DNA of 60,057 bases, filler included, from Hausera hauseri (lineage: Eukaryota), in the NCBI GenBank assembly GCA_046269625.1. It is 11 parts of 11 records of this genome, joined end to end, with 100 filler letters (N's around TTAATTAATTAA, not from the genome) between each part and the next. Parts side by side here need not be neighbours in the genome. Positions count along the whole stretch, not along the records: positions 8,251 to 14,300 come from JBJURY010147868.1; 10 more parts are not named here. The stretch is one strand, 5' to 3'. The notes beneath the pieces are model-generated. The model was not told the origin of the DNA and searched no databases. It was given only the letters and a program-made list of their open reading frames with translations. Shown here piece by piece: positions 5,730 through 59,840 of this stretch. The translations under genes and the position numbers were made by a program. Position 1 is the stretch's first letter; each line of letters begins with the position of its first letter.

Positions 5730-5950
5730 GAATAGGGGGAAATGTACCTTAGGTCCCACTCCAGAGGGAGTAATCGATAAACCGATACTGCATATATGCG
5801 AATCGATACTGCACCCGGAGCACTATCGATTGGTAATGTACATGGCAACGGTGCCCAATGGTGCACATTTTACTTTTCTATCGCTGCACATTTCACTATT
5901 GATCGAATCGATTGGAAAAAAGTGCTAATCGGTAGTACAAGTGTGCAAAA
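5730..5950. repeat. ATCGAT/GTGCAC-rich dispersed repeat, probably a DNA-transposon terminus; related copy at 14061-14300
   Basis: Shared blocks gcactatcgat, ttgatcgaatcgat and aagtgctaatc in both places; the 14061 copy begins TA|CAGT like Tc1/mariner ends. Confidence 0.55.
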
Positions 5951-8250: not shown

Positions 8251-8931
8251 AGTTGAGAAAGGATATATTACATTCTCTGCATAAAACCACAATTTATTCA
8301 GTCATAGATCTCGAAAAAGCCTACCACCACATACCGGGAACACCTGAAGACATCCAAAAAAGGTCCATAATAGCACCCTTTAATCTCTTTGATTACGCAT
8401 TCATGACGTTCGCCTTAAAGAACGCAGTCCAAACTTTTCTACGGCATACTGATTCTATCCTCTCAGGCTTATCATTCGTATATCCATATTTTGACGATAT
8501 AAACGTAGCTCTGACCTCACCTAAACAGCATGAAGAACATCTCAAACTAGTTTTTCAACGCTTGCATAACAACTTACAAATCAACTTTACTAAGTGTTCT
8601 TTCTTGAAGGAAAAGGTTAACTTCTTGGTCACATAGTTACACCCGACGGACATAGTCAACAACTTGATAGGGTCTATCAATTACGAAACATCGAATTACC
8701 TAAAACCACAACGGATATGCGTAGCTTTTTCGGGACTGTGCACTTCATTCATAAATACGTCCCACACTGTAGCCAGTTAACTGCTCATTTTGCTCAACTA
8801 AGAGCAGGGCAAAAGAATCAGCCTCTAATTTGGACATCAGAACTAATAAACCCATTTGACGAACTTCGTAACAATCTCAAAACAGTGGAAATACTAACTT
8901 ACCCAAGGCCCGATGATGATATAATCCTAAC
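8251..8931 (+). mobile_element. Gypsy (CsRn1-like) RT to RNase H junction, degenerate; continues at 11258
   Basis: IDLEKAYHHIP...MTFALKNAVQTF...YPYFDDI...KC.F; close to the RT at 52000-52900. Confidence 0.9.
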
Positions 8932-8959
8932 TGTTACTTTTCGATTCATGAATGCTTTG

Positions 8960-9345
8960 AACATCCGGTTGCACACCCGACTCCTTTATCTTTCTGCCGG
9001 ACATTGTTTCAAATGCGCCATTGAAAGCCACTACTTTCGGTTTGAATTTTTTAATTTTTTAATTAACACTGATTTCGAAGCATGTAATTCAAAAGAAGTT
9101 AATTCGGAAGACCACTTCGTTGGGCAACTGCATAAATATGTAAAACCAATTCCATAAACCATAAGTTTAGTTCATCTTGGTAACTAAATTAGTTGGAACT
9201 TTCAAACAAACGATTATTTACTTCGGCATAATGATGACCAACTTCTGAAGAACGAATACCATGATTATATCCAACAAATAAAATATCCAAATTTTTTTAA
9301 TATAGTCCGGTGGAATACCACTTTTTGTAGTAAACATTTGAAACT
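8960..9345 (-). pseudogene. TDG: G/T-mismatch thymine DNA glycosylase (TDG/MUG family) fragment
   Basis: PDYIKK/LDILFVGYNHG..SEVGHHYA...YGIGFTYLCSCPTKWSSEL...KLKKFKPKVVAFNG...GVQP, with frameshifts and stops. Confidence 0.8.
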
Positions 9346-9879
9346 AATATTTTTACAGATTCTTAAAAGGGCCAACAGAGAATTAAAATTCAAAAGATAA
9401 CAGCAATAGTGTTTTATTAAAACAATTACAATAATATTTTTTCATTTAAAAAATTCAGATGAATTTATTGCGGATCATAGATAACTATGACTTATGACTT
9501 ATTGTTAAGCTTCAGGCTATAAGAATTGTGTTACAATCATTCCAATGTACAAAATATCACATCATCATCATCATTATAGTGAAACGATAGAGATTACACA
9601 CCAACAAACAAATATCAAAATCCTGTATCATCATAAACATCGACACCATTGTTCACATTTTCATTGCGAGTCTCCGTTTCATTTGTAATTTTTCTGGAGC
9701 TTTGATCAATTTCAGAGGACGTTTTGGAATTTTGGTTGTTTATTGCTGTTGTGGATGGTGAATGAGTGCTAAAAGATCTTCCGTTATGAATGCCACTTGA
9801 TGAACACAGATAATCCTGATCTCGACCATCATCTGGCTTCCATTGTTTGTGATTCTCTACTATCGATATATCTTTTTCA

Positions 9880-10500
9880 GAACTCGATTTTTCTTCAGAA
9901 AATTGCCATTGTCGTCGCTTCAATTCTTGGTTAGGCAATTCCAACTTGAATTTTTCTTATGTCAATTGACGACGAAAAGTTTTTGCATTCTGCTTCAAAT
10001 TCACAATTGATAGCATTGCATCGTGATAAATCTCGATTCAAATGATCAGATTTTGTTTTTTGACTATTGAAATGTATCCATTTCCGATTAAAGCTCGGCA
10101 ATCTGTTGCTGCGAATCCATATGGTTCCGAAATTCCTTTTCTCTTCCGGCCGACATCACCGTTTCTAAGTTTCTGATGTTTTATTGTAGCGAATTGATCT
10201 CAATTTTTTGACTTTAATTGTTCCACTTCTAACAATCGACAAGATATCTATCTTTGAATATTTTCCTTGCAATTTTCCAAACGGGTGCATAGATCTCTCA
10301 TAGTAGCTAATTCTTTCAACAGTTCGTTATGAACTACCAATGCACGTAGTTCCTGGCCCCGATGATTATTAACATCATAGATTCGTTTCAATTGTTGCTC
10401 AAGGTTAAGATCATACATTAGTCTTTCAACTTTCTGGCTGCAGTCACCGCCGGTCATTGAATGGAAATCGGATTTGGAAATAGTTAAGTCGCAATTATCG
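9880..10500 (-). pseudogene. Coiled-coil fragment resembling the CEP135/TSGA10 C-terminus
   Basis: ELLKELATMRDLCTRLENCKENIQR*ISCRLLEVEQL and RRQLT*EKFKLELPNQELKRR recall CEP135 C-terminal motifs; several stops. Coiled-coil similarity can be non-specific. Confidence 0.5.
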
Positions 10501-11257
10501 GCGTTTGCTCGATTTAAAAACGTTGTTGATGTTCTTATGCTATCTAGTTTTGTCGAATGATGGGAGTCCAACAGGCCAGTAATTCGTCCGTTTTGGTTAA
10601 TTGCCTGTGGTTCAGCTTTGACCCAGTTTCTTGATCTCGAGAATCATTGATATTCGTTTTTAGAACAGTTATTGACGAGGACAGCGGACTAGAGGGATGC
10701 GTTGTCGTTGCGAATCGATTAATATTTTCTGACAAATTTCTTGGATTCAAATTCAGAGAACTAAAACTTGAATCTTGTTTGTCAAATGTTGTTGACTACA
10801 GTGGCTACTATGTCTTGCATGCGTAATATCTTGCCGGTAAACAGTTGCTGCTCGAAAGAATAGGTCAAGTTTCATTTTAAACGGGCGACCTTTGAACACG
10901 TCTTCAAAATCCTGTTGATAAAATGTCAACATATCACAGTTTGCTTAGCAAGACTGAAAAATCAATTTAAAAATTTGTTTTTTATCGGCCATCAGAGGTT
11001 TATGGAAGCACACGGTCATAATGTCATAGTTTAATAATATGGGATATTGATCGAATAAAATGACTAATCGGTTTATGGTAGAGGAAAGGCAATACTGAAT
11101 GTTCATCGTTGTCATTCGAATTTCAAATAATCGGTATCATGGATACTCCTTCGAGGTGGAAAATTGGGTTCGACTATGGGCCCCACGCGGCGGCGGCGGA
11201 CGCCCGGCCGTGTCTAACCAAATGGGCCAGAGGGCGCCGGCCGCTGTGAGCACCACA

Positions 11258-11900
11258 CTAACAACCGACACCTCCATAACAGCAGTCGGCGCAGTTCTCC
11301 ACCAAACCTACCAAGTCACACGCTATATTGTCACAGATCAAGTCCCCCTATTCAATTCAAACCTATTAAAATCCTTAGTTAATCAACCGGGCATAAACCA
11401 CACACAACTCCATATCACCCCAATTGAACGGCTTATTTGAGCGTTTTCATCGAACCCTTAAAATGTCATTAAATATTCTTGTCGAAATTCACACCGACTG
11501 AACAACCGTCCTTCCTTTCGTATTACCATGGTGGCGCAACACGCCACCATTACCGCCGGTTGTGCATCCACAAAAGCACTCTTCGGCACCACGATACGTG
11601 CACTTTTTGAATTAACTGACTTGCATAACACACAGACCGACTAGACGATACGATCTGCGCAAAACCATTTCACCCAGTTAAGCCAGGACTCTGCAAAATC
11701 ATACACGGTGATAAGTCATATTTGCTCGAATCGTTGTTCAACGCAAAATTCATGTGGTTGAAAAATCCTACACCATCAGGATTTAAACCGCACTATTTAG
11801 GACCCTCTACAGTTTTAAACATAACTTTCCACACAGTTACCATAAGTAAAACGGCAAAGATCAAAATGTTGACGATGCGTCTCATTCATCGCTTAACTCC
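11258..11900 (+). mobile_element. Gypsy RNase H start and integrase remnant (internally deleted)
   Basis: TTDTSITAVGAVLHQ, IVTDQ..F.S.L, ERFHRTLK and FKPHYLGP; parallels 53700-54300. Confidence 0.8.
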
Positions 11901-12211
11901 ACACAACTTTTCTAGAGTCTTTCGCTTCAAAATCACACTCCACTCAAGCTGATACACCAAACAACTTGCCGATCAATCTCCAATCTGCTGACATTCAAAA
12001 TCATCACACAATTTCACCCCAATCATTTCAGCAGATCGCTAAACATCAAGTAACATATCGCAAGTCAGTTTTAGCAAATACAGTAGGAAGCAAAATATCA
12101 ATAAAGTACAACGTCAGATACACACGAAAACTGAATAGGACATAAACATTTTCCCTTTTCTGCGTTTTTCCTTTTCATACTTCTTCTGTATTGTAATACT
12201 ATCTTTGTTAC

Positions 12212-12414
12212 GGGGAGGGAGTAATGTGGTGCCGCAGTTTCGGGCGCTACCACAATTCCGCATTTTGTTTTTTACACTCAACACAGTTTTCACCATTGTG
12301 TTGGTCGTCCCGATCCTTGCTTGCCAGTTCCCGCTGGTTTGGCAGTTGACCGGTCCACTATTCACCCGAAATCGATTTATTCACATTACTAAAGAAGAAT
12401 CGAGCTATACCACG
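12212..12414 (+). mobile_element. Polypurine tract and start of Gypsy 3' LTR
   Basis: GGGGAGGGAGTAA (12212-12224) directly followed by TGTGGTGCCG. The LTR end is uncertain (ACCACG near 12414). Confidence 0.7.
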
Positions 12415-14769
12415 CCAAATGTCGAACTCAATGAAGATCTTTTTTCCGTTGTCTTGGAAAAAGATTTTTTCTCAACTCTTAAATTTCTCAAAATACGAAA
12501 AGTAGCAAATGTAAAACATGTTATTTTTGTGCAATTATATCAATTGGCTGGTACTCGACTACTGGCGTTGAAAATTAAAGTTGGCTAGCTACTGCCGGTT
12601 GTAGAGAGCACCTTATTAAAGTTTTGGAAAATAATTCCAAAATGCAGAATACTGAATCAGTCTGCAGTATACAAACCTAAATATTAATCTCAGTATTCAT
12701 GTTTGGGATATTTGAAGGTAATACTGATCTTGTTACAGGCATTAAGTGGTAAAATGATGGGAAATCAAACAAGTTGTTTCGCCTATTATTTATCATATTG
12801 CACTTAGTAATACGAGAAATACCAAACCAAAAAATAGTTTCATTTGAAGGTCGCAGATTTATGAATGTTTTTATCTGTTTGAAAAAGAAAATGGACAGAT
12901 TGAATTTAGTTTTCTAACGGGTTCTTACAATGGCAATATTTCGGCAATTGGAAATGAAAATAAAGAAAAATCTATGGATTTCGGGCCTGTTGTATTAGAT
13001 AGTCAATATTTAAATACGCAGGCAGTGGATTTGCTGAAGGTCGATTGAAGGTTCAATGGAATTACTTCATCCATCTGTTCCAATCAAATTGTATGACTCA
13101 AATGACATTTATGGAACATTCATTATCATTGTTGTTTCACGATTACCGAGTCCACAAAAATCTTTCAATTCGATAGACTTCAAAACCGATTCGACAACCG
13201 CTAATCTGGTACGGTTGTCATTTTCCAAACAAATTATAATCAAATCCAATACACGGAAACCGAATATTACCCCCACAGTTGAACAGTATTCGAATACCAG
13301 TATCGAATTTTATGGTTCAGACAATTAAATTATCAAAAAAATCTTCAATAAATATTTAAATTCCAGCGATACAAAATAAATGACGTTGATGATCAGCTAT
13401 AAGGAATTTTAAACCCCATTTAATAATTATTCATTCATTAATAACTATTACCTTAGAAACATTTTTATCAATGACACACAATACGGATTGAGTAATGCTC
13501 CATTTCCTGAATTCATTGAATCCGGATGACATTGGTTTTCCTGTTTTTGTTTCCAGAAACCGCAAAACAAACAACCGAAAATTGAATCACTCAGTCATAC
13601 AATATATTTCTACCGAAATACTCCAACACCACTCTATTCGGAGAATTTCATGTTCTGTCAATTCACCAACCATGAATCAATGGAATCGTTAAATTTTGTT
13701 CAACTAACAAATTTTGAACAAATATTTTGTTTTATCTGTAAAAAAGGCCAAGGTGATTATAAACAAGCGCAGGGTTTGTCCTTTGGTCGATTCACTCCAC
13801 CTTGACACGAAAAATTATAACTTTTTAATGATCATTGTTTAAATAAATTAAAAAATTACTTTTGGTCAGACATTGTAATTTAAGTCTGATTTTTAGACAT
13901 TGATTTAACATAGTATAAAACATTATCTGCTATTCCACGTTTAATCAGGAATAAACATTGGCGATGGATTTACTTTTTAATTACGAACTCAAATTTATTT
14001 GAAGTCCAGACGACAATTCTTATGGTGCCGATTGATCCGACCGACTACGGTCGAACTAGTTACAGTAGAGGGAAAATGGGGAGTCTGTCCCACCCCAGGT
14101 GGTGTGTGCGTCGATAAATCGATAGGGAACAAGTGCTAATCGATAGTGCACTATCGATCGGTAGTGTGCTAAGCGATGGTGCCGCTAGGCACCGTTGCTA
14201 AGCACATTTTTGCACATTTCACAAATCGATTGCTGCACAGTGCACAATTGATCGAATCGATCGGGACGAAGTGCTAATCCATAGTGCACAGTGTAGGTGT
14301 NNNNNNNNNNNNNNNNNNNNNNNNNNNNNNNNNNNNNNNNNNNNTTAATTAATTAANNNNNNNNNNNNNNNNNNNNNNNNNNNNNNNNNNNNNNNNNNNN
14401 ATCTGTAAAAAGATTGAGGGTTTCAGTATTTTCCATTGTTCAGTACTCATATGTGATATAGAATACAAGGTTACATATTTAGAGGAGCAAAATTCAGAAA
14501 TTTAATTTATACGTATTTTAGTACTATATATAGTTTAATATTTTTTACGAACAACCCATTTTTGTTTCATAATCGTTGGCCGATACTGTATAGTATGACA
14601 ATTTTGTGTGCTAAATTAAAATATGCAAATTAGGTTTTCTCTTGCTGTTTTGTATTATTTTAAATTTAAATTAAATCAAATTTAAACTGACAAATAAAGC
14701 TCCAATTTTAAATGGTCGTTATATTGTTATTTTAGATCGATATTTTTGTTTTATTTTTATGATATCCAT

Positions 14770-19431: not shown

Positions 19432-22400
19432 ATGTATTGCGTCTCTTGCATGCATGAGGGGGCAGAACAGTGTCATAAACAGATGGCGAAATATTACAGT
19501 GTTAGAATGGTCACATATCTGCGTACGACGTGTAATATTTCAGCCCAATATCCGTACCTTAATTTTATGACATGCACAAGCATCATCTCGTACCTTTTAC
19601 ACGATCGAAGAAGATGATGCTAGTGCATTGTCCCATGTGTCCACGGTACTATACAAGTACAATGCGTAACGTTGATGGCTGCCATAGTGCAATGGAGCAA
19701 TACTATGGCGCCGCAACTGTGCACGGTAAACGAGCCTATGTATGTCTCGTTTGTTCTATAGTTGAAGAAATCAACTATGAACAATTTTATAATGAGCACA
19801 AGGACCACTTTAACGAGTTTCAGAGGTCCCGAAAGGAAATATTAATGGATGCAGAAAAAAGCAGTATTCTGTCCTCTAGCAGGAAACGACAAGCATCAAC
19901 AAGTCTTGATGAATACCTGCAAAGCAGCAATGTAGAGCAGCAGCAGCAGGAACCGCCCATTACTGTCAAGTACGATCTAAAGAGATCGCATGTGGACATA
20001 AAAGTGAACACGTCAGAGAAATCAGCAACTCAACTGAGACATGTACCCGCTCATGTGCGCAACCGATTAAAAACCGAAGTGGAGAAATTCAAACAAAACA
20101 ACTGCAAATTGCAATATTGTGGACTTGCAGAATTTGAGAATCTGCAGTGTGACAGTAAATAATGGTACCTGTCACATCGAGCGGTTCCATATTCCAAAGA
20201 TTTCATTGCCGAAATGGGCGAAAGGCTGGACGAAAAAATCGCCAACTACAACCAAAAAGGCACTGGTTGGCGAATAATAAAAATTGTCATTCTCGGTTTT
20301 ATTATAACAAAGTCGAGTGACATAATTTACCTGTCCAAACATTCATTCATACCGACACCTGAAGCTCTAAACCAATCTTATGCGGTAGTGGATGTAAAAA
20401 ACACGTACGATGGTTACTGTTTTATTTACAGTATTCTGGCGGTATTAAAATATGACAAAGTGGACAGACATAGTGCATATCGTCCAGGTCAGTATCGGCA
20501 GTATTTCTGCGAATTGCAATTCGACAAAAACTTGATGCCGATGAAACTAAAAGCCATTCCAACATTTGAACGGCGTAATCCGACACTGACAATCAACGTG
20601 TTCCGGTACGATGCAATAGTTGAAATACCGGTAGACGAAGAAATTTACAAGAATCCACATGTGGATATAATCTATCGAAGTCGGAACCCGAATGGACGCA
20701 TAGTAAATTTGTTATTGTTGGAGCAGGCAGAAAAATTTTATTACGTGTCCATAACAAATTTGGACAGACTGTTGAACATGGACCACCATCAGTTCATCAA
20801 AAAGCGTATACGTTGTAAATGGTGTCCTGTATGTCTGCATGGCTTTAGATCAGAAACCACTTGGGAAAAACATATGACGCTGTGCAGACAGAACGCATCA
20901 GGAACAACAATGTACGTCATACCAGTCAAAAAGGAGCTGCAATTTATTGACTGGTCTAAAACGGTCATTCCAGCATATGTGGTGTATGCTGATATTGAGG
21001 CAATCCTACCACGATCAAAAACATTTTTCTTTCGCCGTCGGAATGTTGGCTGTTCCAATAAAAGCTGCAAGTCAACCGCAATATTACAGGTTTCATGGCT
21101 GATTTCTTGCATCATTTGGAAACAATAGTTGAATCGGAAATCGCACCGTGGTATCATAATAACAGCACAAAACCCCTGATTTGAACAGATGAAGAAGAAC
21201 GCCTGACGTTTTCAGTCACAGAGGAATGTTATCTGTGCCACAAAATATTACTCTTTGATGTACTGGAACGGCTCGTACCGGATCATGATCATTTTACCGG
21301 TCGATTCTTAGGAGCAGCATGCAATTCATGCAAATTGGCAAGGTGTGTGCGGCCATTCCTACCGGTGATCTTTCATAAATTCCGAGGTTATGATTGTCAC
21401 CATATACTGAAATGGGCCGTCAACACATTTAAGTACTGGGAACTGTCCATAATCCCAACAACAATGGAGAAGTACATGTTCATGTTTGCTTGTATTAACT
21501 GGTTCCAGGTACTCTTCATTTATTCATTGCAATTTTTCAATGAATCACCGACAAAGCTGGGAAATGTTTGACCGGATGTGCCGATAACCTCAACACACTT
21601 CCCCACACATATTGCACGCAGCAAAGGCATATTTCCATATTACTTGGCTACATCATATGAGCGAGGAATTACCACCGCGATGGACAGGTATCGCGTAGGA
21701 TGAATACCGGAAGGCACAGAGGTGTTGGATAGAACTCGGCTGTAGAAACATGTTGGATTACATGCTCCAGTATTTTAAACTGAACGTGTACCTGTTAGCC
21801 GATGTGTGCCAGGCGTTTCGAACGAAAGCGTTGGTTGAAGATAGGCCTTGGCCACTCAACTTTTATTCCATTCCGGGAATGAGTTGGACATCAGTTCTAA
21901 TGTCACTGAATTGAGAAATTGAGCTGCTGCAAGACCCGGAAATGTTCCAGCTGTTTGATGTTGGTATTCACGGTCGTATGACTTTTGCCAACACGCATCA
22001 GGTCAGTGCTACCGTCGATGCCACATCACTGCCGTATAGTGATATTAATTACCTGTACGGCTGGGCCATTTCGCAATCCCTGCCGTAGTTCATTCGAATG
22101 GGTAGTCGACAGACAAGATTTGGACGACATAATGGTCAACTTATCACGAGAAGACATAGCAGGCTCACTCGTATACCTGATAGAGGTCGATCTCGTGGTA
22201 CCAGATGAGGTGCATAACGTTTTGGATGATTTACCGGTCGCACCATTTAATCAATGTTTACCAGGCTCAAAAGTAAAGAAACCTTTCATGACGCATGAAA
22301 CGAAGCTGAATTACGTGGTCCATTGGCGTCTACTACAGTTCTACATGAAGCTCTGTGTACGCGTCACACAACTGTATAGCGAAATCAAATTCAATCAGGC

Positions 22401-23208
22401 GCCGATATTCAAGGCATACATTGAGGGAAATTCAGGAAAACGAGCCGCATCTTGTACAAAGTTCGAAAATGACTATTACATGCTCAAAAACAATTCATTG
22501 TAGGGGAAAACAGCGGAGAATCTGAAGAATCGGCTCAAATTGAGCCTGTAAAACAACGAAAAACGACTGCTTACGTACACCAACAAGGCTCAGTTCAGGC
22601 AATCAATGCATATTGCCGATGGATTGATCGCCATGCTTCTAATCAGAGAAGTCGTACTAGACCGACCAAGCTATATCGGACAAGTGGTACTTGACCTGAG
22701 CAAGTTGCGAATGTACGAGCTCCAGTATCGCGACTTGGCACATTACCGGCAAATGTTTGGCGGCTGTGAGATCAGTATCCTTGCCGGTAACACAGACAGC
22801 TTTTTTGAGCTGAAAAACATTCATTAAGACCAGATGCTCCGGTAAATGATGACAGATAGACTGCAGGACACGTCCAACTACCTACAGAACCATCTTCTGT
22901 ACAGCAGCGCGATGACAAACAAAATCGTCTGCTTCAAGGACGAAGGTGAAGGCCGGATTCAATACAGGAAATGGATATTTCTGGGCCCAAAGTGCTGCAG
23001 TCTTCTGACGGACTGTTGGTTGAAAATGCGGGCAAAAGGCATCTAGCTAAAACGGATGGGAATAAATCACGGTAATTATGGACAAGAAGATGGAAAGACT
23101 GTTGTATCTCAAACGACCATACGATAGATGGAGCACCAATTGTACACCTTCATAAATAAAAATTTGCTTTGTCATGCAACGATGACAAGCGAAAGTGTGG
23201 GGGACAAA
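19432..23208 (+). pseudogene. Protein-primed family B DNA polymerase of a Polinton/adintovirus-like element, degenerate
   Basis: GTGW, FIPTP..L..AVV.VKN..CF.YS, CxxC zinc motifs, DHDHFTG..GAAC (endoVII-like), IFH.FRGYD.H, KGIFPY, KNNSL*GKT.EN, GQVVLDLSKLRMY, GNTDS, KAKG-like RAKGI; many stops and frameshifts. Confidence 0.92.
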
Positions 23209-23308: not shown

Positions 23309-24200
23309 GTACGCACAGGCGATGGTGAGCGGTTTCGTGACGTAGAATGGGTACGGGAAGCGGCAAAATCCCTCATCGGGGCAAAGACAATTCATTTAAT
23401 TTATCATTTATTGTGTTGATAGTTGCCTGCAATGCAATATTTTCAGCTCGTAGCTGATTTAGCTGCTGTTCTATGGGCGTGTTAGTTGTTTGTATGTCGT
23501 TGGCAGCAACTGCTGCTGAAAGTACGGGTTGCAAATTTATGTGGAGGACATCGTATGTCCTATCGGCCAATTCGGCCAATTTATCAAGTGGCGTGGAGTA
23601 TTCCATCACGGTAAGAAGGGCCCGGATTTGGATGGGTACGGCGTTCGTTAAATAATGGCGTAGAAGATCCGGGTTATGTTCCTTAGTGACGCCAAGAATG
23701 CGCAAGTGTGCTAGTGAAGTGCGTAAGACGTCGCTGGGTTTTTGGGTGCCCAGTGCATTTTCGTTAAAGAAACGCTTCATTATGGAGTCAATGGAAGGTT
23801 CAGTCTGCTTTAATACAGCGTTGTATAATTGGGTATATGGGTCAGGATGCTGGAAGATCTCTAACAAGTTATGTATTGATGCTTTTATTGAGCTGGGAAG
23901 GAGATAGAGTAAATTGCGGGCTTTAGATAAGGATTTTGTGATGCCAGTAGACTGTAGCCAGAGTTGATGGAAATGAAGCCACGTCTTACTGGACTTTTCG
24001 TTATCGATGAAGTATTCAGTGTAGTGAGAAGTGTTGGTAGGGTTTTTATGGGGATTTGCATCGATTGAAGAGAGTGGTGGGTTTGGTTTAGAGTAAGAGG
24101 ATGGGTATTGGTTTTTTTGTGGTAGTTGTATCCGCGGTGTCGATAGTTGGTGGGGAATTCATTCCACTACGGATACGGAGATGTATGTTGAAGCAAGTTC
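23309..24200 (-). mobile_element. Gypsy (CsRn1-like) gag
   Basis: PDPYTQLYNAVL...LGTQKPSDVL...LLRHYL..VPIQIRALL..LDKLAELADR; homologous to 50280-50750. Confidence 0.8.
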
Positions 24201-50249: not shown

Positions 50250-53200
50250 GGAAATAGCCCAAGCCCCCCGCGCATCTTGTCGTTCCCCTGGGATCGCCTC
50301 AAATTCTACCAACAGTGGCTAAAATCCAACATCACCGATTCTTTTGTGCGGGCCAATAGTCTTTTGATACTTCTGCCTGTCAACGTCAAGCAGCAGATAA
50401 GTAACATCTCCGAACTACTCCAATACTCGACACCTTACGAGACACTCTGTGAAGCTGTACTGCATATCACGGATACTTTGATTGACAATATAATACAAAA
50501 GTATTTTAACGACCACGAGATAGGAAACCAGAAGTCATCCTACTTTCGCCAAACGCCCATTCTGTAGCTTAGTGCTCTAGGAGTAACACCTATGAATAAC
50601 GCGGATTTAATTCGCCGTTACTTCTTGTCATCTTTGCCCACCTCAATCAGAGCCTTATTCACCATTGTCAACGATTCCACTGCTATCAAAAACTGGCAAT
50701 AATGGCTTTCAAATCCTTTGAGATTCTCAATACCAACGGTTCTCTCCCAATTGCGGCTGCAACCACACATGTTTCAACTACAAACACAACATTCTTCATT
50801 CAACAATTTTAAATGATGAAACAACAGTTTGACAAGTTACAGCAGTCAATTTCGGCCATTACTACTCAACTAAACAATCTTAATGGGCCTCGAAGAAGTG
50901 ACATCAGACCTTCAAAAGAGCGAAGCACTTCGAGACACTCTACTCGATCCCTTTCACTTGGTGGACGTATGACGTGCTTTTATCACACGCGATTTCGTAA
51001 GGATGCAAGGAAATGCTTTTTGGTTGTCGATTCTGCAGCAAACGATACGCGGTAGACAACCCTATTTGCATCTACCACAACAAGTATTAGTCACAGGCCA
51101 GATCATGTGTGCATGGTTGCAAACACTACAAAAATAAATCTCCTCCCTTTTCTTCTCCTTCTTCCTTTTCTCCAAATTCTTCAAAAAACTAATAATGCTG
51201 CAAGATTTTACTGCACATTCTGGCGCAGGCAATGCCGCTCAATCTTCTGGCGTTTCAACACTGACTCCGCAGTCTTTCTGTTGAAAGCTGCACTGTTATG
51301 CAGCGATACCTCACATATCAAATTCCTTCCCTTGTCCTTCACTTCTACATCCACTACAGTTTCCTTTTCACCGCTTTTCACTGCCAGTGGTCAACCGTCG
51401 TACGTTGCAGGAACCACGGAATTGTCTTTCACATTCGCCAACTTGCCAAATAAGTTCATCTGGAAGTTCCACGTGACCAATATTAAATCTCCCATAATAG
51501 ACTCAGATTTTTTTGCCGCATATGATCTATTGGTTGATTGCAAATACGGCTGCCTTCTGAGCCGGAACTCGATCGCAATTCCAAACGTATGTTTCGCAGA
51601 AAATCTAGCGAACACCTCAATGCACTATTCTATAATTATACTGAATACCTCGTCAAATACTAACGAGTATAACAATCACAAACCAATTTTGAATACCTCG
51701 TCAAATGCTAACAAGTATAACAATCAGAAATCAATTTTAAAACAAAAATCCAAACTGAATATTCACAGTGGAAACGCCGGTTGTTCTTCGTCAATTACTG
51801 CAACTGTCTCGTCCGATGATATACCTCATTCATTCTCATCTATAGACTTCGATCTTAAATCATATGTTGCATCCTCTTGCTTTCGCATAGTTAAAAGGGA
51901 CGTCAACTTCAAGCCTCCATCCACAACTTATCACCATATAGTAACAGATCATCAGAGGCCTATTAAACAAAAGGTCAGACCTTTGTCGCCACGCAGACGT
52001 AAGGCTGTGGAACAAGAATTTAATGAAGTGGAAAAGTCTGGCATCGTTCGGAGATCGAATTCTCCATGGGCCTCTCCTCTTCATATAGTAGTAAACAAAG
52101 ATAGTACCTACAGGCCATGTGGCGACTATCGACAATTAAACAACCTAACTATTACATATGCCTATCCACTACCACTCATCAAGGATATTCTTCATAGCCT
52201 CAACAACACCAATACCTTTTCTACCATTGACCTGCACAAGGCTTACCATCAAATTCCTGTTGCACTTGATGACATTCCAAAAACTGCTGTCATTACACCA
52301 TTTGGTCTTTATGAATACATCTCCATGCCTTTCGGCCTTCATAGCGCATCTCAGACATTTCAGTGCCACATTGACACCGTCCTTTCTGGTCTTGATTTTG
52401 CTCACCTATACATAGATGACATATTAGTCGCTTCCTCCTTGATCAAACAACATCACGAGCACCTTAGGATTATTTTCTGCAGATTACATCAAAGCAATCT
52501 ACAAGTCAATTTCACCAAATACAATTTCTTCCAGAAACGCGTAAACTTCCTAGGCCACATGATTACTCCCAAAGGTCATTCGCTCCAGCCTGATCGCTTA
52601 CAACTATTAAAAAATGTGACCTTACCAACTACTACTACCGATATGAAGAGTTTTCTAGAGACATTGCATTTAGTATACAAATACTTGTCACATTGCTCCG
52701 AACTAACGGCACCTTTCGCACACCTCTCATCCGGGAGGAAAAGACAATTAATCCATTGGACTCCCGATCTAGTAAATCAATTTGATCGCCTTCGTGAAGT
52801 TCTGAAAACCGTTGCAATGTTGGCTTTTCCAAAATCAAACGCGGAACTAATATTAACTACTGATGCCTCCACCACAGCCACTGGTACGATACTACACCAA
52901 ATACACAATGGTGTGGATGAGCCGTTAGAATTCTATTCCCGAAAGCTTACGCAACCAAAAAGCCGATACGCAACATTCGATCGGGAACTCCTGGCCATAG
53001 TTCTAACGGTAAAGCATTTTAAGCATTAGCTCCAATTACGTCAAGTCGTCATCCAAACCGACCATAAACTTCTACTTCATATAATGACGTTGAAACAGCC
53101 ATCATACAGACAAGAATGACAGATTTTATACCTGTTGACATTTAGTTTTTCCATGAAATATATTTCAGGCACCGAAGATTTAGTTGCAGTTTTTTTGTCG

Positions 53201-54569
53201 CGGTCGGTCAACTCAATTACAGTTTAGCCAATTTTCTCTTCTGAAGTCCTGAGAAGTAATCAGCCATCATTTGATATTCTCCAAGCTTTTAAATCCGTTA
53301 AGATCATCGATAGCATCACCTACGACACATCTAACTCGACTAATAAAAAATCATTCTTGCTCCATCGCTACAAAAGACAGATTTCAATCACTTTCACTCT
53401 CTTCATCACCCGTATTCAAAAGCCACATTCCGTCTACTGCAACGCCATGTTGTATGGTCGATTTTGCGTACAGATGTACAGGTCTGGGTTAAGGGATATG
53501 TAGCATGTCAACAATATAAGGTTCATAAACACCTCACACCACCACTTTATCACTTCCCTTGCACGTTTCGTTTTGACACCGTTCATTTGGATCTTGTGGG
53601 TCCTTTACCATCCGATAACGGCTATCAATATATCTTATCCATGATGGATCGCGCTTCTTGCTGACCAGAAACCGTTCCGCTTCAATCAACCAACACTGAC
53701 TCAGCAGCAGATGCACTTATCAAAATAGGGGTCAACCGTTTTGGTTCACCACGTCACATAATAACGGACCAGATTACGCAATTTGAAGCTGATCGTTTTA
53801 AATCTCTGGTAAGGCACTTGGGGATAGCCCATTTCCATACGACGTCGTACCATATCCTAGAAAATGGTCTTCTTAAGAGATTTCACAGAACCATGAAGAC
53901 TTCCTTGAAAATCTTGGCAAACAACAATCATAACTGGACCTCAATTCTTCCCCTTGTCTTACTTGGTTGACGCAACACATCATCCACCACCACAGATTGT
54001 GTTCCAGCTGAGGCTCTCTGTGGAGCACCAATTCGCGCCCTATTTGAGCTCTCCAATCTCGATGAAAGTACGTCAGATGAAGTTATTCGCGCGGCACAGT
54101 CCCACTTTGTAGATGTAAACTCAAACGCATTTGTCGACTTATAAATAAAGACAAATATTATATTCCAGAGGACTTATACTCAGCCAAGTTTGTATGGCTG
54201 AAGGATCCGTCACCTTCTGGTTTTCGGTCTCAATACGTTGGCCCTTACAAACTACTCAACCTTTTTTCGCACACAGCTACTATTTTATGCAAAGACAAAC
54301 CTCAAAATGTACACATCTCTAATCTTAAGCCAGTATTCTTCGTTGACGATGACCAGGATGACAGCACTATTTCAAATCCTAACTCTAACCTCTCTTCCCT
54401 TGAGCCATCATCTAATTTCCTCGATGATTTTGATCTGTGACAGCAATTACTCTCACATCACAATCAGTGCTCTTCACGTCCATCACTGTCCACGGCTCCT
54501 TCACCACTTCGCCGTCATCGCCTACATATACACCACTCACTTCACCTTCATCGCACAATTCGTTTCCAT
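50250..54569 (+). mobile_element. Degenerate Gypsy (CsRn1-like) gag-pol
   Basis: gag with CFYH...ARKC motif, protease remnant, RT (SPWASPLHIV, CGDYRQLN, YIDDIL), RNase H (TTDAS, DRELLA), integrase (VHLDLVGPLP, ITDQ, RFHRTMK), GPY motif. Confidence 0.93.
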
Positions 54570-55246
54570 NNNNNNNNNNNNNNNNNNNNNNNNNNNNNNN
54601 NNNNNNNNNNNNNTTAATTAATTAANNNNNNNNNNNNNNNNNNNNNNNNNNNNNNNNNNNNNNNNNNNNCCACTAAGTGGAGTGCCAACAAATGTTTCGA
54701 GACCAAAACGCCCAGTCGCCAGACCTAGGAAGCCCCAAGAAGAAATTGACTACAATGGAGAACTGATAAGAGAGTTGAGACAGATGTCGATTCCTACTTT
54801 TAACGCAGACAATGAGGAATTAAGCGAGCTAATGAAGAATTTAATACGTATTGTAAATTATTCAAGTCTCCGTTGTAATCCATTAGACGATAAAGAAAAG
54901 GCGATATTTGACGCAGCTAGGACAATGAGAAATTCGCTTTTAAAGCTGCCAAAAAGCAGCTTTACTGATGACGTAGTAGTGGAGAAGATTATGGTAGAAA
55001 ATACAACAGAAGAGCTAAGAGAAGTATTACTGTTTGGCAATTAAGACAAATCCAAATGGAGAAAATGAACTAAATCGAGCTACTAGTTTGGCGCGAAAGG
55101 CATTTAGAAAACTCCCGTGGGAAGTAAATTGGCCGAAATTGTTCTATAAGGAAGAAGATAAAAGAACCAGCAGTAATAATTGACTAGGAGATATCATTCG
55201 GAACTTGACGACAACGGACAATAACAACAGAAAGAACGAATCTAAT

Positions 55247-57070
55247 TGGTTAATCAGTTTACTTACCATAATGATGTTGATAAAACATATTGGCGCTGTC
55301 ACCGTTTACGACTGCGATAGATTTAAGCTTGGACAAAAATACTCACTAGTGAATTTAGAAACATGTGAAGATGCCAGACCACACAAATTAGAAACAAAAA
55401 AGAAGAGTTACTTCCCATACCAACAACAAGAATTAATAGCTTTGGATGATATGGAATGTAGGATGAGATGGTCTCGTAGCATTTTCCACTGTGGACTAAT
55501 GCATGGACACTCCTCTATAATGAAACCAACGACCCCTCCAATTCCAATGAACTTAGAAAGGCAACACTGCAATCAGGCCAGAGAAACCGGAAAACTGAAA
55601 TGGGATAGTATGGAACTGGAAATTCAGCCCGGAAAGATAATCAGAGCATATAATATAGTAGTTGGTAGGTTAGATATGCATAACGGGCACTGTAGTGGAG
55701 CGGAATACGACACCGGAAAAGGATTAGAGGCAAACGTGGTAGTAGTAGACTTTTACGAATCAGAAATGCGAGTACAGAAGGTAATGTTTCATAGCGTCAT
55801 AAAACTATATACCGAAAATCAAAAATGTCATATACAGGATGGAACCTGTGCTTTTAGAAGTTCTATCGTCATATGGGAACCGCCCGCTGGAAAAGACCGT
55901 GATTTTATTAAGATTAAGGAATTGAAATTTAATGAAACTACCGAAAAACGATATGTAAACAAATTCGACATCAGTTTAAGAGCACGGGAAGACGTATCAG
56001 AGCATCATACACCTACGATACTAATCTCTGATCAACCTGGATTGAAATTCATAATAAAGGAAATGATTTTGCGTTGTGAAGTAGTAATGTTCACCACTAA
56101 TTACGAAGCGTTCTTCGTCGCAGAAACAAAGATAAACGCAAAAACATACAGATTGGAAACGCAAGACATTAGAATCGAAGATTATTTGAAAAATCGAGAC
56201 GATTATTCTTACTACAAAGGACAAGTCGGAATAGCCGAACTATGTCACAAAATGACAATTAATGACTGAAAATTAGACACGGAAATTATGAGGACAAAAT
56301 TAGCTCTTATCTACGCAAACCCTGAGTTAGCATCACCAATTATTCCCATGAGAAAAGGAATTTTTGGCCCAGTTACTGACGAAGTTCTACTAACATATGA
56401 ATGTGAGAAACAAATGTACTAATCAACGTCGAAGAAAAACGATATATACAGGAGCTGCCTGTAATTTACCAGAACACTCCGCGATTAGCCACACCTCTTA
56501 CTAGAGTACTATTAGACAATACAACACAACCTACAATCTTAAAGGATTGTAAAGCAAGTATTGGCAAACCAATGTTTAGGCGTAGCGAAACGGATTGGGT
56601 TAGCTTACCTAATGGAGGTGTCACTATCATTCCAAAAAAACTAACCGGAACTAATTTAGCAAAGGGAATTACTGATGACAAATTCCAGGACACATCTCAA
56701 AAGGGTATTTATATACCGAAAGAAATTGAAGCTTTTCGACAATTCCTCGCTTTTCCACGACAGCGAACACACGAATTAAACCGAGCTATAGCATTAGTAG
56801 TGGACGATACCCGACATCAAACTAAATGAGAATCTTTACTCGGAGCAAACCATTATCAATGAGTAACCACAGAAATACTCTACAAAATATGGGGAAGATT
56901 TTTAATTTTCGGACAAGCCGCATCTGGATTTTTACCAATCTATTTCTTGGTACAATTAGTAAAAGCGGTAATCCAAGCATTTATAAACGTATATGAAATA
57001 TTTACGGTAACAGAATTTTCTTGCAAAATTTTAACCGCAATTATCACCCTGTTTGGCAAAATGCTTAAAG
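55247..57070 (+). pseudogene. Envelope glycoprotein, chuvirus-G / gB-like (copy 2)
   Basis: 354-aa open stretch 55205-56269 with signal-like segment, VTVYDCD and the Cys pattern seen in copy 1; hydrophobic C-terminus at ~56880-57060. Confidence 0.82.
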
Positions 57071-57729
57071 CATAGGAAGATAATCGATGGAAAAATGACG
57101 TTGAACACCACGTCGGCTAACATAATTATAAACGACGAGCAAGACCCACATTTCTAATAAAACGCAAAACTAAGAGATCAACAACACAAAGAAATGACTC
57201 CAATTATGAGGAGCCTAAGGGAGGAGAAGCGATCCTCAGACAAAATAGACACAAAATGTATTTAGTAATCAAGGCACCCTTGCCTATCATGCCGACAACA
57301 GCTCCAATATATGAAGATTGTGATAGGACATCCATGGTTTCATACAAATCGGAGATCTGTTAGAAACCCTTTCGCTATGATGACCCGTATGAAGGAACAA
57401 AACAATATGGAGTAATAAAGAAAATGCAAATCACTAGTCAACGACAAGTGGACGATGACCATGGGGTAATATATTCACCGAGAATAGATCGTAACATAGA
57501 GACAAGATCGACAGTCTGGGGGACACAAGGAATGAAGTCGTTCCAAAACCCAATAACAAAAGAACCATTAATTAGAAATAACGCAGCAATTAACGACTTA
57601 TACCCTAACGAAGAACTAAAACAGTTGACTGAGAATATCGTTTCATCACCAGAAATAACAATAAACGGACATAAGATTTCATTAATTAAACGACCAAAAG
57701 ACATGTCAAATTGCTATGGAACCGTTATG

Positions 57730-59840
57730 GAAGGGTGACCCTTCACGAAAATTACTATTGAAGATTGGAAAGTTTATGCCTTAATCGACACCGAATCAGA
57801 GAAATCATTTATCAAGTTAGAATCAATACCACCGACGTTACGAAAACAACTACAGCCAGCATCGTCATCAGACCCTAGCAGCATAGGAGCTTTCGGACAG
57901 GAATCCAAACCGAAATGTAAATGGAATACTCTAGTTGAATTAATGGGTCAAATTCTCTGTTATGAATTCGCCTTAATGGATCAATTAACCGACGATCTAG
58001 TATTAGGTTGCGATATACTGAAACAGTTAACCAACATCGCAATAAACTTACAGACTGGAAACCTTTTGGAACTTGAACCAGTGAAAGGTATTAAGACAGT
58101 GAAAGAAAGGAAACTAGGAGAAGTATGGATCCCCGTCGATGAAAATATTCCGCCCAGAAACGAGATGTTAATTTATGCTCAGATCCGCGAAGAAGACTAC
58201 CAACCAATATATTTTGAGCCAAACAAGATGTTAATCAAAATATTATACTTAGTAACATTTTGACGAGAGTAACAACAGGAAGAGTACCGATTAGATCAGT
58301 TAATAACTCACCAACGCCCGTAAAATTATATGCGAATACTAAGTTGAGTCACACTTACAAAGTGTCTGCAATAACAATAGAAGAAAAACCGTACAAATAT
58401 GCCGAATTTCCACCTCATGTTGAAACAAAATTTTCACCAGAAGCATATTGCCAAAGTTACGAATTATTATGTAAATATAAATCGATTATTGCCCAAAATG
58501 AGGAAGATATAGGCAGAGCAAAAACGCTAAGATTGAAGATTCCATTAAAAATGAAACCTGGCTCAAAGGACGGAATTGATTTTAAAGAGCAAAAGATGCC
58601 ACAATGGCACCCACCACCTCATTCTCTAAGTCCCAAAATAACCAAAGAAGTAGAACGCATGTTAAAAGCTGACATAATACGACCGAGCTACCGATCTTGG
58701 TACTCACCAATACACATGGTTAAGAAAAAGGGTATTACGAAACATTGAGATTGTATAGATTACCGAGCCTTAAAAACACTTATGATGAAAGACTCATTCC
58801 CACTACCATCAGTGAAAAAAGCTTTAGACAGATTATCAGGAGAAAAATAGTTTACCACATTGGATTTGCAATCAGGATACTGGCAAGTAGAAATTGAAGA
58901 AGAAGACCGTTACAAAACGGCATTCAAGACGCGCGATGGAGTTTATGAATTTAACCTCATGCCAATTGGCATAACAACCGGCCCAGCTATCTTCACCAGA
59001 ACCATGAAGAAAATTCTAATGGGACTTGATCATGCATTCTCATATTTATACGATGTAATGATAGCATCAAGAACAGTAAAAGAGCACCTAAAGGATATCG
59101 AAGACACTCTTATGCGATTAGAACAAGCCAAATTAAAACTGAACCCAAAGAAATGTAAATGGGCACAAAATAATATATCCTATCTTGGACACATAGTCGG
59201 AGAAGCAGGGTCATAACCAGATAAATCTCTATTAAACAAAATATCAGATTGCATAGAACCCCAGAATCAAAAAGAATTAATGCATTGGTTAGGTTTATGT
59301 GGATATTATGCCACGTATGTACCAGACATCTCGAAAATAAATGCTCCATTATATAGACTACTGAAAAAGGGAATCAAATGGAAGTGGACCGATGTTGAAC
59401 AAAAAGCGTTTGACGAAATGAAGAAAATTTGAACAAGCGAACCAGTGTTGAAATACCCCGATTTCAATTTACCATTCGTAATTAAAACAAACGCAAGTAA
59501 AAAAGGAATTGGTTACGAATTGGCGCAGAAACGAGAAGATGAAGAATTGAACAACCCGATTGCATACGGACGACGATTACTTAAGAAAGCCGAATAAAAT
59601 TATTCAGTTACTGAATTAGAAACATTGGCTGTAAAGGATTCATTAAGACATTTTAATGTCTATGTATACGGACAGAAAACTATTATAGCTACCGATGACA
59701 AATCTGTGACAACGCTAAAAGGACGGGCAAATAACCCAACATGTAGGCTAAATAGATAAATTGAGGAAATCTCGCGATACAATATTGAATTTCAATATAA
59801 ACCTTGAAGCAAACATATCGACTCAGATGTTTTATCGAGA
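57730..59840 (+). pseudogene. Pol: protease, RT and RNase H (copy 2)
   Basis: ALIDTES (D at 57787), LVLGCDIL, WYSPIHMVKKK, LDLQSGYWQV, MPIGITTGPAIF, YLYDV, TNASKKGIG, NYSVTELETLAV; stops and frameshifts. Confidence 0.92.

What the first reader, a model, noticed from the sequence alone, without database searches (positions are those of the whole stretch)
8927..11262. Precise TSD-bounded insertion splitting a Gypsy RNase H motif and holding a chimera of host genes
Removing 8932-11257 and one CTAAC rejoins atc cta ac|a acc gac acc into ILTTDTSITAVGAVLHQ. TDG homology runs to within ~30 nt of the CA end, so there is no room for a second LTR. A cryptic CA end may have been used by integrase. At least two unrelated genes are fused, which suggests serial template switching (inference).
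Basis: seen in the sequence. Interest (0 to 1): 0.7.

Follow-up and report, generated by a model that had tools for sequence, protein, structure and literature searches.

The report
Lone LTR built from host genes
A 2.3-kb piece inserted into a dead jumping gene begins with the start of a very common retrotransposon end-repeat, continues as broken gene sequence right to its last bases, and recurs as several decayed copies that mostly stop at the same point, so it is likely a lone terminal repeat that was rebuilt from captured cellular messenger RNA, an unusual layout of a known gene-capture process.

Summary
The insertion is real: 8932-11257, TG...CA, 5-bp duplication CTAAC, splitting an RNase H motif whose halves align side by side on an intact sibling element. 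It reads on the minus strand: a head of about 80-110 bp that is very high-copy and is preceded by a purine-tract-like run in other copies, a dead ORF of about 500 codons with no homolog found (CEP135 not supported), a 275-bp spacer, and a broken TDG/MUG glycosylase fragment (E 1e-13) reaching to within 31 bp of the end. New here: the interior has about 4-6 other neutrally decayed copies, and 3 of 3 contigs that leave it on the left do so at 8932, 8939 and 8942 with three different flanks. The cargo-derived CA end is therefore a reused terminus, not a one-off cryptic cut. Best reading (0.55): a solo LTR of a Gypsy family whose LTRs are a fixed head plus captured host sequence. Serial template switching is unproven, since the parent genes could not be seen. 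The left junction was not covered by the contigs laid. The scan noted this head-plus-cargo system before, in other windows of this genome. New variant of LTR-mediated gene capture.

The parts
8927..8931 (+). left copy of the 5-bp target-site duplication (CTAAC)
8932..11257 (-). inserted unit, 2326 bp, TG...CA, antisense to the host element; only 3 bp of terminal inversion (TGT/ACA)
11149..11257 (-). GC-rich LTR head (5' end); inner border approximate
   Evidence: summed contig depth 53,544 at 11215, 6,275 at 11184, 180 at 11149, 22 at 11036; 118 contigs leave at 11257, their loose line holding a run of seven C on the plus strand; first 8 nt identical to the host element's own post-PPT head
9615..11140 (-). 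dead ORF of about 500 codons (may be more than one gene), coiled-coil-like by eye, no homolog found; 5' border approximate
   Evidence: coding score z 4.7 on minus, -0.2 on plus; 22 control values at most 2.9; searches blank
9340..9614 (-). AT-rich non-coding spacer with AATAAA at 9469 and 9418
8963..9337 (-). broken TDG/MUG-family glycosylase fragment, C-terminal part missing; ATG at 9337; homology shown for 9293-8963
8932..8962 (-). 3' terminal 31 bp ending in CA; low copy, same reading frame as the last glycosylase piece, no LTR-family signal
11258..11262 (+). right copy of the target-site duplication
   Evidence: contig 11229-11736 identical to the window
8251..8931 (+). host Gypsy: broken RT and start of RNase H
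   Evidence: Pfam RVT_1 E 8.7e-16, RT_RNaseH_2 E 0.11
11258..12224 (+). host Gypsy: 18 codons of RNase H, large internal deletion, broken integrase, purine tract at 12212-12221
12225..12254 (+). host Gypsy's own 30-nt LTR head with inverted ends (TGTGGT...ACCACA), followed by coding-like DNA to about 14090

Best explanation
The insert is likely a solo LTR of a Gypsy family whose terminal repeat is a short fixed head followed by captured host sequence, probably taken from messenger RNA. Shown: the head is shared by a very high-copy family and follows a purine-tract-like run in other copies; broken coding sequence runs from the head to the terminal CA; several decayed copies exist and three stop at or near that CA with different flanks; a 5-bp duplication flanks it. 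Inferred: during reverse transcription the enzyme left the element RNA for cellular RNA, so host sequence replaced the R-U5 part of the LTR; only the head (needed next to the purine tract and as one integrase end) was kept, and a CA in the cargo that came to lie against the primer-binding site became the second integrase end. Once fixed, normal strand transfers would copy head plus cargo into both LTRs of each new insertion. One such element inserted antisense into the RNase H of an older Gypsy, and recombination between its two LTRs would have left one LTR between the 5-bp repeats. All copies seen are dead; the cargo is a passenger.
For: TG..CA plus 5-bp TSD at homology-defined breakpoints. 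Head depth 53,544 against 21-49 in the interior bins and 4-15 in most unique flank bins; 118 contigs leave at 11257. The host element shows the same order, purine tract then TGTGGTGC. 3 of 3 left-side loose ends at 8932, 8939, 8942 with three different flanks; at most one can be a parent gene running on. Differences among copies fall 13/11/12 on codon positions 1/2/3 (36 of the 40 rows shown), so the copies are unselected. Siblings in this window have host-like coding sequence where an LTR should be: a broken USP9/USP24-like stretch before gag (Pfam E 8.6e-17), coding sequence running up to CA plus a Trp-type PBS at 24550, coding-like DNA after the host's own head (z 4.8). At 4 of 4 loci the coding strand is the element's strand (1 in 16 by chance).
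Against: No full element with two such LTRs was seen; no genome is held. Only 1 of 3 other flanks opens with TGG near the CA, which has a 12% chance, and it matches the family's PBS poorly. One of three copies stops 10 bp short of the terminus; the 8939 copy keeps only 4 of 7 terminal bases (chance 9%). No contig was seen to link the other copies' interior to the head (tables are cut). Similarity of the head to the host's head is not significant unanchored (p 0.13). The left junction is uncovered. No head was found upstream of the two sibling elements, so these may be plain insertions into genes. Tan et al. (PMC5131818, section 5) argue integrase needs 15-20 bp at each end, which a cargo-derived end would lack.
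Confidence: 0.55

Rival explanations
1. The 2.3-kb unit moves on its own as a single-LTR cDNA: it is transcribed, reverse-transcribed in trans and integrated with the head at one end and the cargo CA at the other, never as part of a two-LTR element.
For: Several dispersed-looking copies with a shared end; no PBS clearly seen after the CA in 3 flanks.
Against: The unit holds no primer-binding site or purine tract of its own (one search found neither pattern inside it), so priming has no basis; solo-LTR formation explains the same picture with standard steps.
Confidence: 0.15
2. One reading: a one-off event in which integrase used a cryptic CA inside the glycosylase sequence of a longer cDNA; the other copies are the longer parent element, truncated by chance.
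For: The end is in frame with glycosylase coding and low-copy; one of the three loose flanks could be the parent running on (not resolved).
Against: Three different flanks within 11 bp of the same end; two independent chance stops there have about 0.002 probability over the 258 bp examined.
Confidence: 0.12
3. The cargo is one contiguous piece of host DNA or read-through RNA holding two neighbouring genes, captured once (3' transduction into the LTR), with no serial template switch. This concerns the origin of the cargo and is compatible with a solo LTR.
For: Co-oriented coding stretches, 275-bp spacer, two AATAAA after the first stop, ATG before the glycosylase domain.
Against: No sign of introns: 50 nt lie between two glycosylase motifs that are 25 residues apart in TDG, and two frame changes of the long ORF coincide with 1-nt indel differences between copies at 10621 and 10793. 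Weak, as host exons can exceed 1 kb here.
Confidence: 0.3
4. A Pack-type DNA transposon (Ginger-like TG..CA ends or Pack-TIR) that captured genomic DNA.
For: TG..CA ends, 5-bp TSD, high-copy end with low-copy interior.
Against: No terminal inverted repeat beyond 3 bp (one search lists none joining the two ends among the 25 longest of 441); only one end is high-copy; purine-tract-like run outside that end.
Confidence: 0.05
5. Assembly artefact joining a repeat copy into the Gypsy contig.
For: Small-contig assembly; this copy's own left part is absent from the contigs laid.
Against: A mis-join would not give an exact 5-bp duplication with colinear RNase H halves; the right junction lies in an identical contig; the run holds 0.64 of the sampled words of 8300-12400, more than the flanks alone (about 0.44) could give.
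Confidence: 0.03

Closest known systems
LTR-mediated retroposition in metazoans (Tan et al. 2016, PMC5131818; passages and section 5 read)
   Same: Partial host coding sequence joined to LTR-element sequence, several genes possible in one unit, further rounds of copying giving dispersed copies.
   Different: There the cargo replaces internal ORFs and is flanked by element sequence on both sides, with both LTRs kept. Here element sequence lies on the 5' side only, the cargo sits in the LTR position and supplies the terminal CA.
Abnormal template switching into an LTR (barley BARE-2, wheat Veju TRIM) and 3' transduction in TRIMs (review PMC13317346; passages read)
   Same: Foreign sequence enters the LTR region through a switch between co-packaged RNAs.
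   Different: The donor in BARE-2 is another retrotransposon (Wis-2); here it is cellular-type coding sequence of about 2.2 kb, and no native LTR tail is seen.
CsRn1 clade of Ty3/gypsy (PwRn1, AgCR; PMC2582038 passages; PMC3630058 passages)
   Same: Sibling elements show a Trp-type PBS, a partial CHCC knuckle and a GPY motif; 3-bp terminal inversion TGT...ACA.
   Different: Described members have 4-bp TSDs and ordinary short LTRs (146-381 bp in the rows seen); here the TSD is 5 bp and the unit 2.3 kb.
LARDs and cargo-carrying giant LTR elements such as Burro and Ogre (review PMC6431247; passages read)
   Same: Non-autonomous carriage of host DNA; LTRs of several kb exist.
   Different: Cargo lies between the LTRs or in the polyprotein, not in place of the LTR's own 3' part.

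Membership tests
Solo LTR of a Ty3/gypsy element | TG...CA termini with a 4-6 bp TSD | tested here: met
Solo LTR of a Ty3/gypsy element | 5' end homologous to an LTR start that follows a purine tract in full elements | tested here: met
   118 contigs, C-run in the loose line, agreement only 0.38; same order in the host element
Solo LTR of a Ty3/gypsy element | 3' end homologous to the family's U5 tail | tested here: not met
   depth 26-35 at 8940-8969; no similarity to the LTR regions of two elements in the window (p 0.44, 0.46). The 3' end is cargo; this is the departure from the norm
Solo LTR of a Ty3/gypsy element | same 3' end followed by a PBS in some copies | tested here: inconclusive
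   1 of 3 flanks opens with TGG two bases past the CA; chance 12%
Solo LTR of a Ty3/gypsy element | occurs as a pair around an internal domain | not testable with these tools
   no genome held; contigs of run X1 are short
LTR-mediated retrocopy (Tan 2016) | cargo flanked on both sides by sequence of the carrying element, replacing internal ORFs | tested here: not met
   element sequence on the 5' side only; the flanking Gypsy is a target, interrupted with a TSD
LTR-mediated retrocopy (Tan 2016) | intron loss relative to the parent | tested here: inconclusive
   no intron-sized gap in the glycosylase piece; parent unknown
LTR-mediated retrocopy (Tan 2016) | microsimilarity at switch points | not testable with these tools
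   parent genes and full head family not available
LTR-mediated retrocopy (Tan 2016) | secondary amplification | tested here: met
   interior depth 21-49 against 4-15 in most unique bins; up to 7 contigs differ at one site
CsRn1 clade | PBS complementary to tRNA-Trp | tested here: inconclusive
   met for the sibling at 24550 (motif as in PMC2582038); not shown for the donor of the insert
CsRn1 clade | CHCC gag signature (CX2HX9CX3C) | tested here: inconclusive
   sibling near 50975 has C, H and the third C in register, the last C is absent
CsRn1 clade | 4-bp TSD | tested here: not met
   5 bp here; 4 bp in all elements of PMC2582038
CsRn1 clade | RT/IN phylogeny | not tested
   no tree built
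Pack-TIR / Ginger-type DNA transposon | terminal inverted repeats | tested here: not met
   3 bp only
TDG/MUG glycosylases (UDG superfamily) | sequence homology over the catalytic domain | tested here: met
TDG/MUG glycosylases (UDG superfamily) | intact frame under purifying selection | tested here: not met
   frame breaks, a stop, C-terminal part absent; 12 of 36 differences at third positions
CEP135 | sequence homology | tested here: inconclusive
   no hit in any search; frameshifts weaken all of them, and no CEP135 sequence was compared directly

The most novel reading that the evidence does not exclude
This animal's Gypsy family has given up a fixed U5: its LTR is an 80-110 bp head plus an exchangeable cassette of host mRNA, and its integrase accepts as second end any cargo CA that lands against the primer-binding site. 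The LTR then works as a standing exon-shuffling cassette, and every solo LTR is a TSD-bounded, dispersed gene duplicate.
Probability: 0.35. Interest if true: 0.75.

Novelty: new variant of a known kind. Interest (0 to 1): 0.52.

Why it matters
LTR-mediated gene capture is described as cargo between two intact LTRs because integrase is thought to need both specific ends. A unit whose 3' end is host coding sequence, reused across copies, would mean that one end has almost no sequence requirement beyond CA. It would also mean that such LTRs are missed by LTR finders and mis-annotated as pseudogenes, and that each insertion copies the cargo twice. This instance carries only dead cargo, so the interest lies in the mechanism.

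Tried and rejected
No genome held. No RNA holder listed; this says nothing on expression. Identity of the long ORF: Pfam, PDB six frames (only chance hits apart from TDG), representatives search of one of three minus frames (0 hits at E 0.001), homolog search of one 126-aa stretch (0 of 13 candidates), IMG/VR (0 of 13 stretches), ESM Atlas on one 131-aa ORF (best 0.78); its 5' part was not examined in the Atlas. A 20-nt head motif in JGI metagenomes gave 2 loci of 63-65% GC that share only those 20 nt: chance. No second head in the window (2 matches against 2.28 expected). No tRNA gene in the window. Head not more structured than shuffles (z -0.5). A complete LTR of about 180 bp inside the insert was considered and dropped: no similarity to three window LTR regions beyond the first bases. 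My first negative control for coding signal (12500-14000) scored z 4.0, so I recalibrated on 11 other regions; that stretch looks like decayed coding DNA itself, with no Pfam hit. Glycosylase homology could not be extended to P0001's first 30 or last 44 residues. Host taxon not resolved by an eIF4G search (2 distant hits, about 30% identity). The third glycosylase piece hit only designed repeat proteins. Paper searches for cargo inside LTRs returned no description of this layout; they cover open-licence text only, I read passages of 6 papers and no supplements.

Full report
Setting. The window is a string of small contigs joined by N spacers; the finding lies in the contig 8251-14300. No whole genome is held. 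Host genes in the window (Mon2-like, CAP-Gly, eIF4G-like) show a eukaryote, probably an animal; earlier scan notes call it a probable flatworm, which I did not test and my one attempt did not resolve. One public run, X1, holds 0.64 of the sampled words of 8300-12400; it may be the source sample, so it is not independent support.

The insertion is real. CTAAC stands at 8927-8931 and 11258-11262, with TG at 8932 and CA at 11257. The left flank is broken RT (Pfam RVT_1, E 8.7e-16) running into the start of RNase H. An intact sibling elsewhere in the window gives an internal control: aligned separately, 8600-8929 matches 52526-52855 and 11258-11311 matches 52853-52906, so the two flanks are adjacent on the sibling and share one codon. 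The contig holds 40 chance TG..CA pairs with a 5-bp repeat at 1.5-3 kb, but only 1 of them lies at these breakpoints, and the chance per given pair of ends is 4.6e-6. The host element is dead: frameshifts, and a jump from RNase H into integrase shortly after the junction. The right junction lies in an X1 contig identical to the window over 11229-11736 (29 letters on the insert side, two short of the tool's bridging rule). The left junction was not covered: 0 of 11 records laid on 8890-9189 reach 99%, and the tool warns that filtered records leave holes.

Anatomy, minus strand. (1) Head. Summed contig depth is 53,544 at 11215, 6,275 at 11184, 180 at 11149 and 22 at 11036, against 21-49 in the interior bins and 4-15 in most unique flank bins. 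Depth sums are not copy numbers, but the contrast is three orders of magnitude. 118 contigs leave the window exactly at 11257, and their loose line (agreement 0.38) holds a run of seven C four bases out, that is a G-run just upstream on the element's strand. The host element shows the same order, a purine tract at 12212-12221 and then TGTGGTGC at 12225; the first 8 nt of both heads are identical, though an unanchored alignment is not significant (p 0.13). I read this end as the 5' start of an LTR. (2) A long dead ORF, about 11140-9615: coding score z 4.7 on the minus strand and -0.2 on plus, where 22 control values reach at most 2.9 and a known broken gene scores 4.0. Two of its frame changes coincide with 1-nt indel differences between copies (10621, 10793), so they are not introns. 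No search named it; 'CEP135-like' is unsupported, though frameshifts weaken every search. (3) A 275-bp AT-rich spacer with AATAAA at 9469 and 9418. (4) A TDG/MUG glycosylase fragment in three frames, 9293-8963, combined E 1e-13 against P0001, with an ATG at 9337. Its first piece is 73% identical over 30 aa to P0001, an unnamed 184-aa protein (the only candidate scored), and 12 of 29 to the TDG in the PDB, so its origin is open. (5) The last 31 bp continue the glycosylase frame and are low-copy (depth 26-35). No LTR tail and no terminal inverted repeat beyond 3 bp were found.

The unit is a small family. Interior depth suggests about 4-6 other copies (inference); listed contigs are about 88-98% identical. 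Contigs link 8932 to 9344, 9297 to 9435 and 9783 to 10255, so the arrangement is shared at least in parts. Differences in the glycosylase fall 13, 11 and 12 on codon positions 1, 2 and 3 (36 of 40 rows shown; I dropped 4 rows beside a frame break, and 6 rows were not shown): no selection. Of 5 loose ends, 3 lie on the left side, at 8932, 8939 and 8942, each with a different flank; the other 2 are on the right (9108, 9168). The 8939 copy still matches 4 of the 7 terminal bases (chance 9%); the 8942 copy does not. If the CA were a one-off cut in a longer parent, other copies should run on with one shared sequence. They do not; at most one flank can be a parent, which I could not resolve. One flank opens with TGG two bases past the CA, as a primer-binding site would, but the chance is 12%.

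Same pattern in the window. Upstream of the gag of the element at 50150-54500 lies a broken USP9/USP24-like stretch (Pfam E 8.6e-17). The element at 23373-24550 has a Trp-type PBS directly after a CA that ends an open host-like frame, with CAP-Gly coding further up. After the host element's own 30-nt head comes coding-like DNA (z 4.8; no Pfam hit). At 4 of 4 loci the coding strand is the element's strand (1 in 16 by chance). Against: no head was found upstream of the two siblings, so they may be insertions into genes. Earlier scan notes on other windows of this genome describe the same head-plus-cargo layout; they are unchecked leads, and they led me to look at the siblings.

Mechanism. Shown: ends, duplication, head, cargo, copies, neutrality. 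Inferred: host RNA replaced the R-U5 part of the LTR at a strand transfer; the head was kept; a cargo CA next to the PBS became the second integrase end; later rounds copied head plus cargo into both LTRs; LTR-LTR recombination left this solo copy (0.55). Rivals: the unit moves alone (0.15; it has no priming sites), a one-off cryptic end (0.12), a DNA transposon (0.05), an artefact (0.03). Separately, the cargo may be one neighbouring gene pair captured once (0.3) and not a product of serial switches.

Known kinds. Tan et al. 2016 (PMC5131818; passages and section 5) show cargo replacing internal ORFs with both LTRs kept, and reason that integrase needs 15-20 bp at each end. BARE-2 and Veju (review PMC13317346, passages) show foreign sequence entering an LTR by switching, from another retroelement in the case of BARE-2. 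CsRn1-clade features fit the siblings in part, but the clade's 4-bp TSD (PMC2582038 and PMC3630058, passages) is not met. Reviews place cargo between LTRs (PMC6431247, passages). Five paper searches returned no account of LTRs made of host coding sequence up to the terminal CA; the library is open-licence only and I saw no supplements.

Verdict. Observation largely right, one gene label unsupported, interpretation partly right. A new variant of LTR-mediated gene capture; interest 0.52. The boldest reading not excluded is a family with no fixed U5 (probability 0.35, interest 0.75).

Noticed in passing
window 12212-12254 (+): The host Gypsy ends in a purine tract and a 30-nt unit with inverted ends (TGTGGT...ACCACA; fold z -1.8), then about 1.8 kb of coding-like DNA (z 4.8): either a 30-bp LTR or a head followed by cargo.
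   Followed up: partly
window 49064-49880 (+): Broken USP9/USP24-like ARM-repeat sequence (Pfam E 8.6e-17) sits where the 5' LTR of the element at 50150-54500 should be; no clear PBS seen.
   Followed up: partly
window 24520-26200 and 28140-28575 (-): CAP-Gly-containing (CYLD-like by recall) coding pieces with an in-frame stop lie upstream of a Trp-type PBS at 24550; an open frame runs right up to the CA before it.
   Followed up: partly
window 9204-9293 (-): The first glycosylase piece is closer to an unnamed compact MUG-like protein (73% of 30 aa) than to the TDG in the PDB (12 of 29); foreign origin or fast divergence is open.
   Followed up: partly
window 45900-48960 and 54670-59200 (+): Two related elements (about 76-85% identical blocks) with a broken Monjiviricetes-type fusion glycoprotein ORF (Pfam E 7.6e-17) next to gag/pol-like ORFs: envelope-bearing LTR elements.
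   Followed up: no
window 19563-22503 (+): Fragmented ORFs that look by eye like a Polinton/Maverick-type protein-primed DNA polymerase region; the one ORF scanned had no Pfam hit.
   Followed up: no
window 14088-14300: Very high-copy short repeat family (summed depth 568,042; many joints that go back about 130 bp), with related copies at 5780-5940.
   Followed up: no
window 34040-40500 and 27570-28130: Long simple satellites (GAAC/GAAT tetramers; GATGG pentamers).
   Followed up: no
window 10448-10745: An X1 contig of depth 19 is 98% identical to the long ORF here: either collapsed young copies or the parent gene.
   Followed up: no
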